A DNA stretch of 64,000 nucleotides, taken from IMG/VR virus record IMGVR_UViG_2974623408_000001, positions 32,001 to 96,000 of that record, one strand, 5' to 3'. Under the pieces are notes generated by a model. It was given only the letters and a program-made list of their open reading frames with translations, was not told where the DNA came from and did no database searches. The position numbers and the translations under genes were made by a program. This DNA is from a virus (taxonomy: Duplodnaviria > Caudoviricetes). Positions 43,813-48,439 of the stretch are shown one piece after another. The first letter of the stretch is position 1; the number at the start of each line of letters is the position of its first letter.

Positions 43813-43814
43813 TG

Positions 43815-43886
43815 TGCCAAGGGAGGGACTTGAACCCCCTGCTCTCGGGCTTCAACCGAGCGCTTTACCGTATAAGCTACCAAGGC
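43815..43886 (-). tRNA. tRNA-Phe(GAA)
   Basis: CTCGG-TTGAAGC-CCGAG; two U.U mismatches in acceptor stem. Confidence 0.8.
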
Positions 43887-43964
43887 TTGGGCCTCATTTA
43901 ACGTCTGGGCCATGGACGGTTGCTGTTGAGGCGCGACCTCAACATGGCGTCTGCAACGAGACCG

Positions 43965-44038
43965 TGCCCCTTGGAGGATTCGAACCCCCGCGGTCCTTGG
44001 GTAGAAACCAAGCGCTCTGTCCGCTGAGCTAAAAGGGC
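43965..44038 (-). tRNA. tRNA-Arg(TCT)
   Basis: CTTGG-TTTCTAC-CCAAG. Confidence 0.9.
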
Positions 44039-44046
44039 GTATGAAA

Positions 44047-44196
44047 TTATTCGGTGTATTGCGACTTTACGTGACCGAACTTGTCGATGTGAGCGTGGTC
44101 ATGATTCTTGCGTATTGCGCAGACACGATCTTCTACAAACGTGCCCTTGCTGGTGACCAGCTTTTCTGTCCAAGTGTATCCGCATATCTCTTCCAC
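44047..44196 (-). CDS. 49-aa protein (C..C..H..H)
   Basis: GTG 1 nt after the tRNA-Lys discriminator; MEEICGYTW...CAIRKNHDHAH. Confidence 0.5.
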   Translation of the reverse strand: MEEICGYTWTEKLVTSKGTFVEDRVCAIRKNHDHAHIDKFGHVKSQYTE

Positions 44197-44197
44197 G

Positions 44198-44269
44198 TAC
44201 CCCGGGAGAATTTCGAAATCTCGACCCGCTGGTTAAAAGCCAGCTGCTCTTCCTCTGAGCTACCGAGGC
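44198..44269 (-). tRNA. tRNA-Lys(TTT)
   Basis: GCTGG-CTTTTAA-CCAGC. Confidence 0.9.
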
Positions 44270-44382
44270 TTGTCATGAAGTCGCGCGTTATTGCTCATTT
44301 TATAGTGATGATAGCGCGTTATTGCTACACCCGTCGGCCTTCACCGAATCACCACGACAGGCCTTCACCTGTACTTCATGAG

Positions 44383-44458
44383 AGCTCCCTGTCGGACTCG
44401 AACCGACAACCTTCGCTTTACAAGAGCACTGCTCTGGTCCAAATTGAGCTAAGGGAGC
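44383..44458 (-). tRNA. tRNA-Thr(TGT)
   Basis: Loop CTTGTAA; acceptor GCTCCCT/AGGGAGC. Confidence 0.9.
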
Positions 44459-44520
44459 AAGTGCGAGGTATGCTCTCGCTTGCGAGACTTCAACTCGCTT
44501 TGCCGATTTTCACGGTCCAC

Positions 44521-44587
44521 ACTCGAGAGCTACCCCAGCTTCACCCACATGGTGCAGGTGACCAGTGTCGAACTGGCTTCCTCGAAC
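44521..44587 (-). ncRNA. circularly permuted tRNA-like element (Ala identity)
   Basis: T arm GCCAG-TTCGACA-CTGGT, CACCTGC-ACCA-T-GTGGGTG, D-like GCT-GGGGT-AGC, closing GTTCGAG/CTCGAGT. Confidence 0.65.
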
Positions 44588-44593
44588 TTGTCG

Positions 44594-44665
44594 TACCGCA
44601 TGAGAGAATCGAACTCCCGACACTCGGTGTGTAAAACCGATGTTCTTCCACTGAACTAATGCGGC
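44594..44665 (-). tRNA. tRNA-Val(TAC)
   Basis: TCGGT-TTTACAC-ACCGA. Confidence 0.9.
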
Positions 44666-45057
44666 TTGCACAGACTTACATGACGAAGACTTGCATACTT
44701 ATGCGGAAATACTCTTCCACAATCACAAGTTACAGGTCCAGCTTCGACAACGATTTGAGTTCGTTTCGAAGCTGCCTCACGTTGTCTCGCTGTGCGTTTG
44801 TCACCGTGCGCAACAGTCTTTACAACGTGACAGTCATGACATCGAACAACACATTTAGCGAGCTCAGCTTCGCGACGCGCTGCTGACCAGCTCCAAATAC
44901 GATGGTCGATTTTAAGACTAGGATCGACATGATCAAGCTGTAGGTTTTCAGTTGTATTGCAATCTACGCAGACCTTGTCAGCGAACCATTCATCACGACG
45001 GCGTGCTCGCCATTCACGCTGATACTGGCGCTGTTTATCAGGGTCTTTGTAGGCCAC
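44656..45057 (-). CDS. HNH endonuclease
   Basis: C..C, LQLDHVDP, C..CH...T. Confidence 0.85.
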   Translation of the reverse strand: MAYKDPDKQRQYQREWRARRRDEWFADKVCVDCNTTENLQLDHVDPSLKIDHRIWSWSAARREAELAKCVVRCHDCHVVKTVAHGDKRTARQREAASKRTQIVVEAGPVTCDCGRVFPHKYASLRHVSLCKPH

Positions 45058-45058
45058 G

Positions 45059-45132
45059 AACGGGTGAGGAGATTCGAACTCCCACGTTCAGTTTGGAAGA
45101 CTGACATGCTAACCGTTAAACATCACACCCGC
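45059..45132 (-). tRNA. tRNA-Gly(TCC)
   Basis: TCAGT-CTTCCAA-ACTGA. Confidence 0.9.
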
Positions 45133-45173
45133 ATATTCAATTGTACCAATTAAGCGCCTCCGCTAGGAGGTCG

Positions 45174-45251
45174 TACCAGCGACGGGACTCGAACCCGCGA
45201 CGTACCCTCCTTGAAAGGGAGGTTGCCCCTTACCGTCAGAGCAACGCTGGC
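45174..45251 (-). tRNA. tRNA-Glu(TTC)
   Basis: CCTCC-CTTTCAA-GGAGG. Confidence 0.85.
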
Positions 45252-45252
45252 C

Positions 45253-45327
45253 TGGCACGGACGTGAGGAATCGAACCCCAGACATGTGGCTTTGGAGACC
45301 ACCGTTCTACCACTGAACTACGTCCGC
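45253..45327 (-). tRNA. tRNA-Trp(CCA)
   Basis: GTGGT-CTCCAAA-GCCAC; encoded CCA end. Confidence 0.9.
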
Positions 45328-45406
45328 TTGGAGCCGTTCGGTAACAGCGTCGTACGTACTGAAACCTGGGTGGCGAGCCCTTGCACACATCGTCATGTGT
45401 GTGACG

Positions 45407-45481
45407 TACCCCGTATCGGACTTGAACCGATGACCCGCTGTTTAAGAGACAGCTGCTCTAAACCATCTGAGCTAACGAGGC
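45407..45481 (-). tRNA. tRNA-Lys(CTT)
   Basis: GCTGT-CTCTTAA-ACAGC. Confidence 0.9.
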
Positions 45482-45505
45482 TTGGTGTATTTCGTTGTTG
45501 ATACC

Positions 45506-45534
45506 ATCATGACACGGGTCGAGTAGGTTGTCAA
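45506..45534 (-). promoter_or_regulatory. SigA-type promoter
   Basis: TTGACA-17-CATGAT. Confidence 0.6.
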
Positions 45535-45537
45535 CCC

Positions 45538-45696
45538 CTATTCAGAATTTAATCTGGCTCGTTCCTTGACGGCACCCTGACCTGTACCGAGACGTTCATC
45601 CAGCACAGCGATCTGTTCCTCGTTCGTACGCTCGGCACGTTTCTTTTGGTAGTACTCTGCGTTGGCTTGTCGGAATCTCTTAGCTGGGTCTGGCAT
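45538..45696 (-). CDS. 52-aa hypothetical protein
   Basis: SD AAGGAG; MPDPAKRFRQ...EQIAVLDERLG.GQGAVKERARL. Confidence 0.6.
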   Translation of the reverse strand: MPDPAKRFRQANAEYYQKKRAERTNEEQIAVLDERLGTGQGAVKERARLNSE

Positions 45697-45716
45697 GTAA
45701 TCTCCTTGTCTAATGT

Positions 45717-45791
45717 TGGACGCCGGTGCGGGAGTCGAACCCGCCTAAACTGGTTTGCAATCAGTCACCTTTGCCGCTCGGACAACCGGCG
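45717..45791 (-). tRNA. tRNA-Cys(GCA)
   Basis: Loop TTGCAAA; U73; encoded CCA. Confidence 0.9.
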
Positions 45792-45841
45792 TGAGGGCAG
45801 ACTATTATTCTCATCCCGCCTGCCATGGGACATGTTCAATA

Positions 45842-46546
45842 TTACTGCAACGGAGTGAAGTTTACAACACCCTGAGGTGCTGCGTCAGCCAGGATGTTTC
45901 CGATCGCTGAGAAACGACTAGGAAGCATCGCACTAGTCACCCCTATCAATCCTGCGGATGATCTGTTCGGTAACGGAGCGTCGTACACAGCGCCACCGGA
46001 GTCACCTGGTAGAACAGGTGTTGTTCCTTCGAACGGGCTACCTGTTCGCGTGACGAAACCGCATGTCTCTCGTGAGATCTGACCGAACTTGCAGAAATGC
46101 CACAGGAATCGTGGAGCCTGACCGATTCGGTTGATCGCAACACCATTGGGTGTCTTGTTGCTGACAGCTACCCCGTCAACGATCTCGAAGAACGCGCCGT
46201 CACGACTGATGTTCTGCGGAGACTTGGTGTAGATGTCAGGAAATCCCGTTGGCTTCGTGACGAAGTGACCCACGGTGACACCTGATACCTGTACCACGCC
46301 GTTGTCTGGGTTGTCAGCCTGGATACAATGACCCGCGGTGAGACCAAGTAGTCGTCCGCTGGCGTCGTGTCCAATTGCAGCGATGCTGCAGATTGTTCCT
46401 CCGCCGGTCAACCCACCGTCAATTTCGATACCCATTCCAGGTCGAAGTGTCGGTGGAGCAGCTGATGCCGAGGCTGGCATCAGGAAAAACAGCATACTGA
46501 ATACGATTGATAGAACTACTAGGATGCGTTTCACATTAAACTCCAA
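45842..46546 (-). CDS. secreted trypsin-like (S1) serine protease
   Basis: Signal peptide, LTAGHC, D.A, GDSGG. Confidence 0.85.
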   Translation of the reverse strand: MEFNVKRILVVLSIVFSMLFFLMPASASAAPPTLRPGMGIEIDGGLTGGGTICSIAAIGHDASGRLLGLTAGHCIQADNPDNGVVQVSGVTVGHFVTKPTGFPDIYTKSPQNISRDGAFFEIVDGVAVSNKTPNGVAINRIGQAPRFLWHFCKFGQISRETCGFVTRTGSPFEGTTPVLPGDSGGAVYDAPLPNRSSAGLIGVTSAMLPSRFSAIGNILADAAPQGVVNFTPLQ

Positions 46547-46582
46547 GTGCGATAGTGAATTGCATCACCAATCGTACACGCG

Positions 46583-46668
46583 CGGAGAAAGCAGGGGTCG
46601 AACCTGATGCCCTTTCGGGCACAGCCGGTTTAGCAAACCGGTGCTACAACCGTGTAGCTTCATTCTCC
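46583..46668 (-). tRNA. tRNA-Ser(GCT)
   Basis: CCGGT-TTGCTAA-ACCGG; long variable arm. Confidence 0.85.
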
Positions 46669-46671
46669 AAG

Positions 46672-46752
46672 TGCTCCTGGTGGGAGTCGAACCCACAAGC
46701 CCGAAGGCTACCGATTTTAAGTCGGCTGCGTATGCCATTCCGCCACAGAAGC
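46672..46752 (-). tRNA. tRNA-Leu(TAA)
   Basis: GCCGA-CTTAAAA-TCGGT; long variable arm. Confidence 0.9.
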
Positions 46753-46759
46753 CTTGCAT

Positions 46760-46936
46760 CTACGTGTCGACGGCGTTCCCGATGATGTATAGGGACGCGA
46801 GGATACCGATCACCGCGAAACACACACCGAACCAGCCCCAACCGGTGTTACTTCCTCCGTCGAGTATTGTCGAAATGTTCCACAGTAATGTTCCTGTGTT
46901 CGCCAGCAAACAAATGACTCCGAACAACAACCACAT
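46760..46936 (-). CDS. 58-aa two-TM membrane protein
   Basis: SD GAGGAG; MWLLFGVICLL...FAVIGILASLYII. Confidence 0.55.
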   Translation of the reverse strand: MWLLFGVICLLANTGTLLWNISTILDGGSNTGWGWFGVCFAVIGILASLYIIGNAVDT

Positions 46937-46937
46937 G

Positions 46938-47147
46938 TCAATCTCCTCTTATCTTGTCGTCATGCTTGTCACATATCCAGTGCCAGAACGAATGATTATT
47001 CGTGTCATGCACGTCCCCATTTTCATCCATGCGTGTCTGATAACTCAGATCAAACACCTCATGTGCGATGGTGTCGATCACGCACCATGGTGACCACCAT
47101 CCGCAACAGAAAAAGAAGGGAGGTGTTAACTTTGAGAGCATATTCAT
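46938..47147 (-). CDS. small hypothetical protein
   Basis: ATGA overlap with upstream gene. Confidence 0.45.
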   Translation of the reverse strand: MNMLSKLTPPFFFCCGWWSPWCVIDTIAHEVFDLSYQTRMDENGDVHDTNNHSFWHWICDKHDDKIRGD

Positions 47148-47593
47148 TCAGTATCCATGTAAAGATAATGATCGCGAAGTCGACGTTCGACCTTACGAAT
47201 TCTGTCGTTGGAATCGAACCATTCGACCATCGTGCCGAACGTGCATACGGCAGCAATGATCGTGAGAATCACCAGACCGAGACACATGCCAAACACGGTG
47301 TCACCTTTGTCCACCGATGCAGAATCACCGTAGCCCTCGAATCCCCACGAGATTACCGTGTACCAGAGAAAAATCACTGTGATGGAGAAAGCAGTACTGA
47401 GTCCACTCAAACTCTTCCACAGTCGTCGGTAACGTCTCAGGTCATCCAGCTCATCCTGGATTCCCTGTTCCACGCGTGCGTTGGCGAGTGTCTTGCGTGT
47501 GTCCATGTCAAGTGCTTTCATAGGTTTCGGGGTACGCTTAAACTTCTTCTGGAGGTGTCGGAACATCTCCTCGTCGAGGTCTTCTATACCCAT
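47144..47593 (-). CDS. two-TM membrane protein
   Basis: Two hydrophobic segments. Confidence 0.65.
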   Translation of the reverse strand: MGIEDLDEEMFRHLQKKFKRTPKPMKALDMDTRKTLANARVEQGIQDELDDLRRYRRLWKSLSGLSTAFSITVIFLWYTVISWGFEGYGDSASVDKGDTVFGMCLGLVILTIIAAVCTFGTMVEWFDSNDRIRKVERRLRDHYLYMDTE

Positions 47594-48020
47594 GACTCTT
47601 CCTGTATGGTGCTTCAGGTCGGTAACCCTTACGGTACACTCTGGAGTGATCCACAGTCAATGGTACTCGGTGGTATTCTTTCCACGCACCGTAGGCGTTC
47701 GCGTCGATCTCTTCTTTGCGACCCCAGAATGTCCAGTCACCGTGCTTGCCGCAGTACTTACAAGCCCACTTGCGTTGCATGAAAAACGATGGTCGTTCCT
47801 CGAAGATTCGTTCGCCGTTCTCTTCACGAACACGGTGCGCTCTGCGGCTGACTCGCTCTTCGTGGACGAGAACCATCTCGTGGTTGCCACCCTTGTTTCG
47901 TTTGCACTTCTTGGAATCCCACCGGCGCTTGTGTTTGGCTTCCTCAGGGTCCATCTTAGCGTGTCGGAAGACCTTAGGATTTTTGTGATCCGGAAGCGTT
48001 GACGGTTCGTCCCAGCTCAT
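47538..48020 (-). CDS. basic hypothetical protein (C..H / C..C)
   Basis: SD AAGGAG before ATG 48020. Confidence 0.6.
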   Translation of the reverse strand: MSWDEPSTLPDHKNPKVFRHAKMDPEEAKHKRRWDSKKCKRNKGGNHEMVLVHEERVSRRAHRVREENGERIFEERPSFFMQRKWACKYCGKHGDWTFWGRKEEIDANAYGAWKEYHRVPLTVDHSRVYRKGYRPEAPYRKSHGYRRPRRGDVPTPPEEV

Positions 48021-48038
48021 GTGTACTCCTTCGTCGAG

Positions 48039-48112
48039 TAGTCCCGGTGGGATTCGAACCCACAACATCTTCCTTTTGAGAGAAGCGCCTCTGCCGATTG
48101 GGCCACGGAACC
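48039..48112 (-). tRNA. tRNA-Leu(CAA), short variable arm
   Basis: CTTCT-CTCAAAA-GGAAG. Confidence 0.85.
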
Positions 48113-48181
48113 TTATAGAGACGAAAACTATTTGTATCAAACACGCGGTCGCCTCAATCGCGCTCTTCCTGCAGGAAATGT

Positions 48182-48295
48182 AGTGACGATGGTCGAGGAT
48201 TTGAACCTCGGTTGAGATGAGCTGGCCAGCTGCATCTCAGTTCCCACGAACATCCACGGAGTCGAACCGCCACACGCGCCAGTGTCATCGTCACC
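48182..48295 (-). ncRNA. tRNA-like RNA with two T-loop arms
   Basis: GGTGACGATG/CATCGTCACT closing stem; GCGG-TTCGACT-CCGT and CGAGG-TTCAAAT-CCTCG. Confidence 0.6.
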
Positions 48296-48296
48296 G

Positions 48297-48379
48297 CGGA
48301 AGACGGAGGACTCGAACCCCGTGGCTTTCACACCACGCCCGCGTTCGAAACGGGCTGCGCTACCTTACGCACGTCTTCC
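48297..48379 (-). tRNA. tRNA-Ser(CGA)
   Basis: Loop TTCGAAC; long variable arm; G73. Confidence 0.8.
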
Positions 48380-48439
48380 TTCAGCGACCAGCTTTGTCTA
48401 CGTGCCGAACCCATTAGGTACTGGTGCATGACGAACGCG

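What the first reader, a model, noticed from the sequence alone, without database searches (positions are those of the whole stretch)
44461..44587. Third circularly permuted tRNA-like element, with alanine identity elements
Seen between tRNA-Val and tRNA-Thr: GTTCGAG GAA [GCCAG TTCGACA CTGGT] CACCTGC ACCA T GTGGGTG AA [GCT GGGGT AGC] T CTCGAGT, followed by further hairpins to 44461. The acceptor stem has G3.U70, A73 and CCA in a 5-nt closing loop. The 5' strand can alternatively pair with CCTCGCAC at the 3' end. Established: G3.U70 is the AlaRS determinant, and AlaRS needs no anticodon. Inference: a stand-alone anticodon-less alanine acceptor or elbow mimic that tRNA scanners would probably miss.
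Basis: partly seen in the sequence, partly recalled or inferred. Interest (0 to 1): 0.8.

Follow-up and report, generated by a model that had tools for sequence, protein, structure and literature searches.

The report
Stand-alone alanine-type tRNA mimic RNA
Between two tRNA genes of a Gordonia phage lies a real RNA element that tRNA scanners miss, shaped like a tRNA opened at the anticodon end and closed at the acceptor end. It is a stand-alone variant of the known Y-RNA-like (YrlA) tRNA mimics and carries the marks that the alanine-charging enzyme reads, marks that recur in such phage elements.

Summary
On the minus strand, 44587-44521 holds a canonical T arm. It is followed directly by a perfect 7-bp acceptor-type hairpin with an ACCAU loop (A73, CCA, G3.U70), then a small G-rich hairpin and a 7-bp closing stem.

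A strict scan finds only three such modules in the whole 122.5-kb phage, against 0.01 expected by chance. All three lie on the tRNA strand and all have NCCA after the stem.

The topology is that of YrlA-class Y RNAs ("circularly permuted tRNAs"). The M. smegmatis member is cut by RNase P and receives CCA, so the kind is known.

This copy is atypical:
- It has no Rfam YrlA match and scores only 16.6 bits with a model of the DUF7873-linked modules.
- It has no Ro60 motif, and neither Ro60 nor DUF7873 is encoded next to it.
- It has no canonical D arm.
- Thermodynamics favours an alternative end-to-end stem.

The only homologue is in phage Phendrix. There all four substitutions fall in loops, CCA becomes UCA, and divergence is too low to test selection.

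New here: other Gordonia and Streptomyces phages carry analogous modules with a pentaloop or short loop, and A73 co-occurs with G3.U70 (9/15 against 2/26). Charging with alanine is plausible but untested.

The scan had already noted this stretch once in an overlapping window.

The parts
44580..44589 (-). 5' strand with two alternative partners. 44587-44581 pairs locally with 44527-21 (an anticodon-stem-like closure). 44589-44580 pairs with the 3' end, 44468-44459 (terminal stem).
   Evidence: Sequence. Both pairings are rare in shuffled flanks, p 0.0015 and 0.002. Energies.
44561..44577 (-). T arm: 5-bp stem plus a 7-nt loop UUCGACA, with G53-C61, U54, U55, C56 and A58 equivalents.
   Evidence: It is present in every predicted fold.
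44542..44560 (-). Acceptor-type hairpin: 7 bp closed by the pentaloop ACCAU (44553-44549). It has A73, C74, C75 and A76 equivalents, U at -1, and G3.U70. The inferred RNase P site lies between 44549 and 44548.
   Evidence: The stem is identical in Phendrix, where the loop is AUCAU. Present in every predicted fold.
44528..44540 (-). Minimal D-like hairpin: a 3-4 bp palindromic stem with the G-rich 5-nt loop GGGGU.
   Evidence: It is not canonical: ARAGORN rejects the un-permuted construct at default settings. It is replaced by a long helix in the MFE fold.
44521..44527 (-). 3' strand of the local closing stem (CUCGAGU).
   Evidence: (a full-length alignment to model R1 uses this stem).
44463..44515 (-). 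3' tail with three hairpins:
- 44515-44503, 3 bp
- 44498-44482
- 44479-44463
The last two are tandem hairpins with identical GCGAG/CUCGC stems and different 7-nt loops.
   Evidence: The GCGAG-N7-CUCGC motif occurs nowhere else in the genome. Three of the four Phendrix substitutions lie in these loops.
44459..44468 (-). 3' strand of the alternative terminal stem. It ends exactly at the RNase P site of tRNA-Thr (G1 at 44458).
   Evidence: (the terminal-stem fold is the MFE in Phendrix).
44593..44665 (-). Flanking tRNA-Val(tac). Its 3' processing would set the 5' end of the element.
44382..44458 (-). Flanking tRNA-Thr(tgt). RNase P cleavage at its 5' end would set the 3' end of the element.

Best explanation
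The 134-nt Val-Thr spacer encodes a real structured non-coding RNA. It is a stand-alone, lineage-specific variant of the YrlA-type tRNA mimic, that is, a tRNA circularly permuted so that the acceptor end is closed by a loop and the anticodon end is open.

Inferred mechanism:
1. It is co-transcribed with the tRNA array.
2. It is released by the normal processing of its neighbours: 3' processing of tRNA-Val, and RNase P at G1 of tRNA-Thr.
3. Its robust core is a tRNA-like minihelix of 12 stacked base pairs (T arm plus 7-bp acceptor) with a canonical T loop.
4. By analogy with M. smegmatis YrlA, host RNase P would nick the pentaloop before G44548. The 3' end would then be trimmed or repaired to CCA.
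5. The result would be a two-piece, anticodon-less tRNA look-alike held together by the acceptor stem and by one of two alternative closing stems.

Its acceptor carries A73 and G3.U70, so the nicked form could be bound, and possibly charged, by alanyl-tRNA synthetase. Its likely role is as a ligand, decoy or tether for tRNA-binding factors. Candidates are the phage's DUF7873 protein, host Ro60, AlaRS, EF-Tu and SmpB.

Shown: the sequence anatomy, its non-randomness, its retention in Phendrix, and the existence of analogues.
Inferred: transcription, processing, nicking, charging and the partner.
For: - Anatomy and statistics: three strict modules against 0.01 expected, all with NCCA. Closure and terminal stem are each rare by chance, p about 0.002.
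- The T arm and acceptor hairpin appear in every predicted fold of both phages.
- All 4 substitutions against Phendrix fall in loops of the tRNA-like fold.
- Model R1, built without this phage, aligns the element full length with the same four helices (16.6 bits).
- Precedent: M. smegmatis YrlA has a 7-bp acceptor, is cut by RNase P in vivo and in vitro, and gains CCA (PMC4201824). YrlA RNAs are described as circularly permuted tRNAs (bioRxiv 10.1101/312249).
- Analogues with the same subclass features (7-bp acceptor, 5-6-nt loop starting with A, G3.U70, mini hairpin) occur in Sixama, BlueNGold/Forza, TunaTartare and IMG/VR contigs. Sixama and Forza differ by a compensatory 4:69 change.
- G.U is enriched at 3:70 and linked to A73.
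- The closest of 149 modules is the phage's own M2: 26/37 identities against a mean of 18.7 (sd 2.2), and 15/18 in the acceptor.
- The overlapping ORFs have no Pfam match.
Against: - There is no homologue outside Phendrix in phage records, IMG/VR or metagenomes.
- Divergence from Phendrix gives no evidence of constraint: 3.0% for the element (core 1.5%, tail 4.8%), against a 4% background and 1.7% in other array spacers.
- CCA is lost in Phendrix.
- There is no Rfam YrlA hit. The R1 score of 16.6 bits lies within the range of tandem-tRNA false positives, 15-31 bits.
- There is no Ro60-binding motif.
- The phage encodes no Ro60, RtcB or CCA-adding enzyme.
- The D arm is not canonical.
- Nearest-neighbour energies prefer other closures. 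In the window phage the cloverleaf-type fold is 7-8.5 kcal/mol weaker than the terminal-stem fold and the long-helix MFE fold. In Phendrix it is 2 kcal/mol weaker than the terminal-stem fold.
- A 5-nt loop that ties A76 to the -1 nucleotide may be a poor RNase P substrate (own knowledge).
- No expression data are available.
Confidence: 0.6

Rival explanations
1. Decaying relic. The element would be a duplicated copy of the phage's own M2-type module (or of an S3-type Y RNA lost with a Ro60 gene) that no longer functions and survives as spacer. The hairpins in the tail would be incidental.
For: - It is most similar to the phage's own M2.
- CCA is mutated in Phendrix.
- The D arm is degenerate and the un-permuted form is rejected by ARAGORN.
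- Scores against family models are low.
- No conservation beyond background can be shown.
- No partner gene lies next to it, and the phage has no Ro60.
Against: - The T arm is perfect and canonical, and the acceptor is a perfect 7 bp.
- Two independent closing stems are each improbable by chance.
- All four substitutions avoid stems.
- The reduced D hairpin and the pentaloop are shared with intact-looking modules of Ro60-encoding phages, so they look like a subclass trait rather than decay.
Confidence: 0.2
2. End-paired structured RNA without a cloverleaf. The functional fold would be the terminal stem (44589-80 with 44468-59) enclosing the T arm, the acceptor hairpin and a long arm (44530-24 with 44478-72). 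Like a Y RNA, its paired ends would be the protein-binding or protective part. Alternatively, the two closures would act as a switch.
For: - The terminal-stem fold is the MFE in Phendrix and lies within 1.3 kcal/mol of the MFE in this phage.
- The 9/10 terminal stem is rare by chance and abuts both tRNA processing sites.
- The AC-to-GU change in Phendrix keeps pairing as wobbles in the long-helix fold.
- Sixama S3 also pairs its 5' and 3' ends (my reading of the sequence).
Against: - It conflicts with hairpin 3 and with the local closure, which is equally non-random.
- Energy models ignore T-loop/D-loop tertiary contacts.
- There are only two sequences and no double compensatory change.
Confidence: 0.12
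3. Processing punctuation only. The tRNA-like shape would merely recruit RNase P and other tRNA-processing enzymes to cut the long array transcript, and the product would have no function of its own.
For: - It sits in a tRNA array.
- It has RNase P substrate features.
Against: - The flanking tRNAs already provide both cleavage sites, so an extra site inside a spacer with no ORF serves no evident purpose.
- The A73/G3.U70 pattern shared with other phage modules is not explained.
Confidence: 0.05
4. Chance resemblance in an ordinary spacer.
For: None beyond the lack of distant homologues.
Against:: the combined features are expected far less than once per genome.
Confidence: 0.02

Closest known systems
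M. smegmatis YrlA (Y RNA-like A; Chen et al. 2014, PMC4201824)
   Same: - A permuted tRNA-like module: T arm, then an acceptor-type stem closed by a loop, then a D-side hairpin.
- A 7-bp acceptor stem.
- An actinobacterial setting.
- YrlA is cut by RNase P at the tRNA-like 5' site and gains CCA, giving two halves. This is the processing inferred here.
   Different: - YrlA lies next to rsr (Ro60), binds Ro60 and carries the 5' GNCGAAN0-1G motif. This element has no such motif and no Ro60 gene in the phage.
- This element is embedded between two tRNA genes.
- It has a 5-nt loop that already spells ACCA.
- It has only a minimal D hairpin.
S. Typhimurium YrlA / Rfam RF02553 (structure: Wang et al. 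2018, bioRxiv 10.1101/312249)
   Same: The overall 'circularly permuted tRNA with a closed acceptor stem' architecture, and a canonical T loop.
   Different: - No match to RF02553 even at E up to 10.
- RF02553 members have shorter acceptor stems that RNase P does not cut, and a canonical D arm.
DUF7873-linked double tRNA-mimic RNA of the same phage (M2 at 49678-49641, M1 at 49527-49490) and of actinobacteria
   Same: - The same topology, and NCCA after the acceptor strand in this phage.
- M2 also has A73 and G3.U70 and is the closest of 149 modules.
   Different: - M3 lies 5 kb away and is not next to DUF7873.
- It scores 16.6 bits against 72.7 (M2) and 45.9 (M1) with model R1.
- The bacterial members never combine A73 with G3.U70 (0/43).
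S3-type modules of Ro60-encoding phages found here (Sixama L096 19410-19375; BlueNGold L097 447-482; TunaTartare L098 530-566; IMG/VR L125 224-189). I did not find these described.
   Same: - Stand-alone in a 135-nt inter-tRNA spacer (Sixama).
- A 7-bp acceptor and a 5-6-nt loop beginning with A.
- G3.U70.
- A small G-rich hairpin instead of a full D arm (Sixama, BlueNGold).
- Ends that pair.
- The L125 acceptor differs from M3 only at 2:71.
   Different: - They carry a 5' CGGUUAYC motif and a 3' AAAACCCGG-like motif.
- They co-occur with a phage Ro60 gene (annotated gene).
- Sequence similarity to M3 is not significant.
tRNA-like domain of tmRNA, including two-piece (permuted) tmRNA, Rfam RF04321
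   Same: - T arm plus an acceptor stem with G3.U70 and ACCA.
- A reduced D region.
- In permuted genes, the acceptor 3' strand precedes the 5' strand.
   Different: - Only 13.5 bits against RF04321 (E 0.48).
- No tag reading frame and no pseudoknots.
- The phage has its own one-piece tmRNA at 52631-53159.
Circularly permuted tRNA genes of Cyanidioschyzon merolae (own knowledge)
   Same: The 3' half is encoded before the 5' half, and the break falls at the anticodon side.
   Different: Those genes yield complete tRNAs through a circular intermediate made by the eukaryotic splicing machinery. Here there is no anticodon loop, and the phage encodes no RtcB ligase.

Membership tests
YrlA / bacterial Y RNA (RF02553) | Match to the Rfam covariance model at or above the gathering score (69 bits) | tested here: not met
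   No RF02553 match in 44440-44610 at E up to 10. M1 of the same phage reaches 38.2 bits.
YrlA / bacterial Y RNA (RF02553) | Topology: T arm, then an acceptor-like stem-loop, then a D arm, all enclosed by a stem | tested here: met
   Sequence reading and a full-length alignment to the permuted-module model R1. The D arm is minimal.
YrlA / bacterial Y RNA (RF02553) | The 5' GNCGAAN0-1G motif (Ro60 contact) and genomic linkage to a Ro60/TROVE gene | tested here: not met
   The motif is absent. There is no TROVE domain in the complete phage genome. Host Ro60 was not examined.
YrlA / bacterial Y RNA (RF02553) | Binding to Ro60 | not testable with these tools
   This needs immunoprecipitation or a gel shift.
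DUF7873-linked tRNA-mimic modules (model R1, built here from 36 modules) | A significant score with the family covariance model, and a position just downstream of a DUF7873 gene | tested here: not met
   Not reported with default filters in 186 kb. It scores 16.6 bits with filters off, within the 15-31-bit range of tandem-tRNA false positives. It lies 5 kb from the DUF7873 gene at 49808-50599.
tRNA (RF00005 / ARAGORN) | A cloverleaf with an anticodon arm in standard order | tested here: not met
   No call in the spacer. The un-permuted construct with an artificial loop is rejected at default thresholds.
Permuted (two-piece) tmRNA (RF04321) | Model match, with a tag reading frame and pseudoknots | tested here: not met
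   13.5 bits against the 47-bit gathering score, covering only the T arm and acceptor. The longest frame in sense direction is 6 codons (sequence).
AlaRS substrates (tRNA-Ala, tmRNA, alanine minihelices) | G3.U70 in a 7-bp acceptor helix stacked on a T arm, with A73 | tested here: met
   G44546 pairs with U44556, and A44553 takes the place of A73. The same holds in Phendrix.
AlaRS substrates (tRNA-Ala, tmRNA, alanine minihelices) | A free 3'-CCA end | tested here: inconclusive
   ACCA is encoded but locked in a 5-nt loop, so a free end needs RNase P nicking plus removal of one U. Phendrix has AUCA.
AlaRS substrates (tRNA-Ala, tmRNA, alanine minihelices) | G2-C71 as a supporting determinant (own knowledge of E. 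coli AlaRS) | tested here: not met
   The 2:71 pair is U.G.
AlaRS substrates (tRNA-Ala, tmRNA, alanine minihelices) | Actual aminoacylation with alanine | not testable with these tools
   This needs a charging assay.
RNase P substrates | 12-bp acceptor/T coaxial helix, T loop, G+1, U-1, RCCA | tested here: met
   All are present in the sequence. Whether a 5-nt closed loop can be cleaved was not testable.

The most novel reading that the evidence does not exclude
Some phages of actinobacteria make small, anticodon-less, RNase P-nicked tRNA look-alikes whose acceptor end is read and charged by host alanyl-tRNA synthetase. They would be a tmRNA-like tRNA domain without the message. M3 would be a free-standing copy that works without Ro60. 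For example, it could engage EF-Tu, SmpB or stalled ribosomes, soak up AlaRS, or draw off defence toxins that attack tRNA acceptor ends.
Probability: 0.15. Interest if true: 0.85.

Novelty: new variant of a known kind. Interest (0 to 1): 0.55.

Why it matters
Y-RNA-like tRNA mimics are known, but what their tRNA-like half is for is an open question. The only processing data come from one species.

This element strips the design down to a bare T-arm/acceptor minihelix with an encoded ACCA. It sits in a phage that has no Ro60, which argues that the tRNA-like half can act by itself.

Across phage modules, A73 and G3.U70 travel together, and G.U is concentrated at the one position that alanyl-tRNA synthetase reads. 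This gives a concrete, cheap test: charging assays with and without U70. The result would show whether a class of phage RNAs is aminoacylated, and if so it would link Y-RNA biology to translation or ribosome rescue.

It also shows that phage tRNA arrays hide structured RNAs that standard annotation skips or mislabels as tRNAs.

Tried and rejected
- Homologue searches. blastn of the element against 50,697 phage records found only Phendrix. Three exact or degenerate DNA patterns in IMG/VR and metagenomes found nothing. The neighbouring serine hydrolase used as a handle found unrelated Gordonia phages only.
- Selection test against Phendrix. There is no power: the background divergence is 4%.
- Protein-coding reading. 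The ORFs overlapping the spacer on either strand have no Pfam match. The 197-aa plus-strand ORF runs antisense through three tRNA genes.
- Repeat family. The tail hairpins and the element itself have no other copy in the genome.
- Promoter or terminator inside the spacer. None on the sense strand.
- Permuted true tRNA rejoined by a ligase. There is no anticodon loop and the phage has no RtcB, so this was rejected.
- Deep homology of M3 to Sixama S3 or to M2. Local alignment p values are 0.10 and 0.04, and the 14-nt shared 3' motif is not seen in BlueNGold. This is left open and not claimed.
- Hairpin 2 as a Phe-type anticodon loop (UUGAAGU). The loop pattern is expected by chance about 1 time in 16 and changes in Phendrix, so it was not pursued.
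- A third module in bacterial DUF7873 loci. The apparent three-module cases are alternative registers of the second module.

Full report
**Setting.** The window is 32001-96000 of a complete 122.5-kb phage genome with terminal repeats. Earlier notes of this scan name it Gordonia phage GodonK. Its only close relative in 50,697 phage records is Gordonia phage Phendrix, genus Godonkavirus. About 30 tRNA genes and a tmRNA lie on the minus strand between 43.8 and 53.3 kb. The finding lies in the 134-nt spacer between tRNA-Val (44665-44593) and tRNA-Thr (44458-44382).

Read on the minus strand, the spacer contains, in order:
- a 7-nt strand (44587-81) and three bases;
- a T arm (44577-61) with every conserved T-loop position;
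- with no gap, a 7-nt strand (44560-54);
- the loop ACCAU (44553-49);
- the complementary 7-nt strand (44548-42);
- two A residues;
- a 3-4-bp hairpin with a GGGGU loop (44540-28);
- the complement of the first strand (44527-21).

In tRNA numbering the stem is G1-C72, U2.G71, G3.U70 and four Watson-Crick pairs. It is followed by A73-C-C-A and one U before G1. Three more hairpins follow; two of them are tandem hairpins with identical GCGAG/CUCGC stems. The last ten bases can pair with 44589-80 instead.

**It is not chance.**
- A strict scanner (5-bp T stem, a TTCRANN loop, and then at once a perfect 7-bp hairpin) finds three sites in the window and in the whole genome. All are on the tRNA strand, against 0.01 per shuffle. 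The other two are the modules M2 (49678-49641) and M1 (49527-49490), which earlier notes of this scan describe.
- All three carry NCCA right after the stem, although only 5 of the 30 tRNA genes encode CCA.
- With the core fixed and the flanks shuffled, a GG-containing hairpin plus a 7/7 closing stem arises in 0.15% of trials. A 9/10 terminal stem arises in 0.2%.

**Scanners do miss it.** ARAGORN, the Rfam tRNA model and all other Rfam families report nothing. The one exception is a 13.5-bit partial match of the T arm and acceptor to permuted tmRNA. An un-permuted construct is not accepted by ARAGORN at default thresholds, because the D side is too small.

**Which fold?** The T arm and the acceptor hairpin appear in every prediction. 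The rest is ambiguous:

| Fold | This phage (kcal/mol) | Phendrix (kcal/mol) |
|---|---|---|
| Cloverleaf-type closure | -42.6 | -46.4 |
| Terminal-stem fold | -49.8 | -48.4 (this is the MFE) |
| Long-helix fold | -51.1 (this is the MFE) | not computed |

These energies ignore T-loop/D-loop contacts. Both closures are individually non-random. A switch, or sequential folding, therefore cannot be excluded.

**Conservation.**
- Phendrix has the element with 4 changes in 134 nt. One is in the acceptor loop, so that CCA becomes UCA. One is in the loop of hairpin 2 and two are in the loop of hairpin 3. None lies in a stem of the tRNA-like fold.
- The two phages differ by only about 4% overall and by 1.7% in other array spacers. 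The element's 3.0% (core 1.5%) therefore proves nothing about selection.
- No further homologue exists in phage records, IMG/VR or metagenomes.

**What kind of thing it is.** The order "T arm, closed acceptor stem, D side, enclosing stem" is the published architecture of YrlA-class bacterial Y RNAs. These are described as resembling circularly permuted tRNAs (bioRxiv 10.1101/312249).
- The M. smegmatis member has a 7-bp acceptor stem. RNase P cuts it in vivo and in vitro at the tRNA-like site, and it then receives CCA, leaving two associated halves (PMC4201824). That is the processing the anatomy here invites: G at +1, U at -1, a 12-bp coaxial helix, and RCCA.
- Neither paper mentions alanine identity.

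**Membership tests fail for the named families.**
- There is no RF02553 match.
- The Ro60-contact motif is absent.
- The phage has no TROVE gene.
- I built a covariance model (R1) from 36 modules that follow DUF7873 genes in actinobacteria and three other phages, leaving this phage out. It finds M2 at 72.7 bits and M1 at 45.9 bits.
- R1 does not report M3 with default filters. With filters off, M3 aligns full length through all four helices at 16.6 bits. That is no better than the junctions of tandem tRNA genes, which score 15-31 bits.
- Among 149 modules compared position by position, the nearest to M3 is the phage's own M2: 26/37 identities against a mean of 18.7 (sd 2.2), and 15/18 in the acceptor. 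This fits an intragenomic duplicate, but ordinary alignment statistics are weak (p 0.04).

**Analogues elsewhere.** Gordonia phage Sixama has a syntenic tRNA array and a Ro60 gene.
- In its 135-nt Arg-Gln spacer lies a module with a 7-bp acceptor, the pentaloop ACCAC, A73, G3.U70 and a small palindromic hairpin in place of a D arm. Rfam does not report it.
- The Forza/BlueNGold copy (84% identical) keeps G3.U70, changes 4:69 from A-U to G-C, and has the loop ACUAU.
- Streptomyces phage TunaTartare and several IMG/VR contigs have related modules. One (L125) has an acceptor that differs from M3 only at 2:71 and carries the pentaloop AUUAC.
- All five of the phages I tested that carry such modules encode Ro60, and none encodes DUF7873.

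**The alanine marks.**
- In 41 distinct phage modules, G.U with G on the 5' strand makes up 27% of the pairs at 3:70, but 2-7% at each of the other six acceptor positions.
- Nine of 15 modules with A73 have G3.U70, against 2 of 26 without A73 (Fisher p 5e-4, not corrected for relatedness).
- In 86 distinct bacterial DUF7873-linked modules, none of the 43 with A73 has G3.U70.
- Against a strict requirement: G3.U70 alternates with G3-C70 inside two subfamilies. Three other Ro60-linked modules lack it. CCA is often incomplete. M3 has U.G at 2:71.
- The alanine reading is therefore strengthened as a recurrent phage-specific pattern, but it remains an inference.

**Mechanism proposed.**
1. The RNA is co-transcribed with the array.
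2. It is released by processing of the flanking tRNAs.
3. It folds around the T-arm/acceptor minihelix.
4. RNase P probably nicks it before G44548, and the end is trimmed or repaired to CCA by host enzymes. The phage has no CCA-adding enzyme or RtcB.
5. It is then used as a ligand or decoy for tRNA-binding factors, with alanylation possible.

I give 0.6 to "real, functional YrlA-type mimic", 0.2 to "decaying duplicate", 0.12 to "the end-paired fold is the functional one", and about 0.15 to actual alanine charging.

**Verdict.** This is a genuine, well-formed, scanner-invisible tRNA mimic. It is a new stand-alone variant of a known kind. The A73/G3.U70 pattern across phage modules is the most interesting and most testable by-product.

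Noticed in passing
L096 19375-19410 (Sixama, minus strand); L097 447-482 (BlueNGold); L098 530-566 (TunaTartare); L125 189-224: An unannotated subclass of permuted tRNA-like modules in Ro60-encoding phages. Features: a 7-bp acceptor, a 5-6-nt loop starting with A, G3.U70, and often a mini hairpin instead of a D arm. Rfam YrlA did not report the Sixama copy, the only one I scanned. The Sixama and Forza-group copies differ by a compensatory change at 4:69.
   Followed up: partly
41 phage modules from L096-L125 and the window; 86 bacterial modules from L016-L095: G.U is concentrated at acceptor pair 3:70 (27%, against 2-7% at the other pairs). It goes with A73 in phage modules (9/15 against 2/26). 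It never goes with A73 in the bacterial DUF7873-linked modules (0/43). Relatedness is not corrected for.
   Followed up: partly
L015 20025-20756 (NiceHouse) against L130 2465-4069 (Trina): Two phages of one genus (Trinavirus) carry different genes at the same place, between the tRNA-Asn/tRNA-Tyr genes (NiceHouse also has a tRNA-Lys there) and a band-7-like gene downstream. NiceHouse has DUF7873 and Trina has Ro60. The two proteins look like alternative partners for permuted tRNA-like RNAs.
   Followed up: no
L099-L125 (IMG/VR contigs): A motif CGGUUAYC lies about 20 nt upstream of the T arm in 43 of 54 modules, and an AAAACCCGG-like motif often follows the D side. Up to five modules sit in tandem on one contig. 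This may be the Ro60-binding helix of these phage Y RNAs.
   Followed up: no
L014 8998-9207 (Ronaldo CDS 125); Trina 'tRNA-OTHER' at L130 2143-2351; tRNA labels under the TunaTartare-like element in Sham, Blueeyedbeauty, GiJojo and Alone3: Database annotations place a small CDS, a pseudo-tRNA or a tRNA over sequence that matches permuted tRNA-like modules (63.6 bits with R1 in Ronaldo). These are likely mis-annotations.
   Followed up: no
window 44283-44295 and 44314-44326 (+ strand): A 13-nt exact direct repeat (GCGCGTTATTGCT), 31 nt apart, in the 112-nt spacer between tRNA-Lys and tRNA-Thr. The spacer is identical in Phendrix.
   Followed up: no
window 43814-53310, the tRNA genes: Most of the 25 tRNA genes that lack CCA encode the discriminator plus C74 and then diverge. 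Only Trp, Cys, His, one Met and Asn encode the full CCA. The phage therefore depends on the host CCA-adding enzyme.
   Followed up: partly
window 44656-45057 (minus strand): A 133-aa ORF lies between tRNA-Gly and tRNA-Val and overlaps the start of tRNA-Val. It is absent at this position in Phendrix, where tRNA-Val abuts tRNA-Trp. It has no Pfam match at E 0.01.
   Followed up: no
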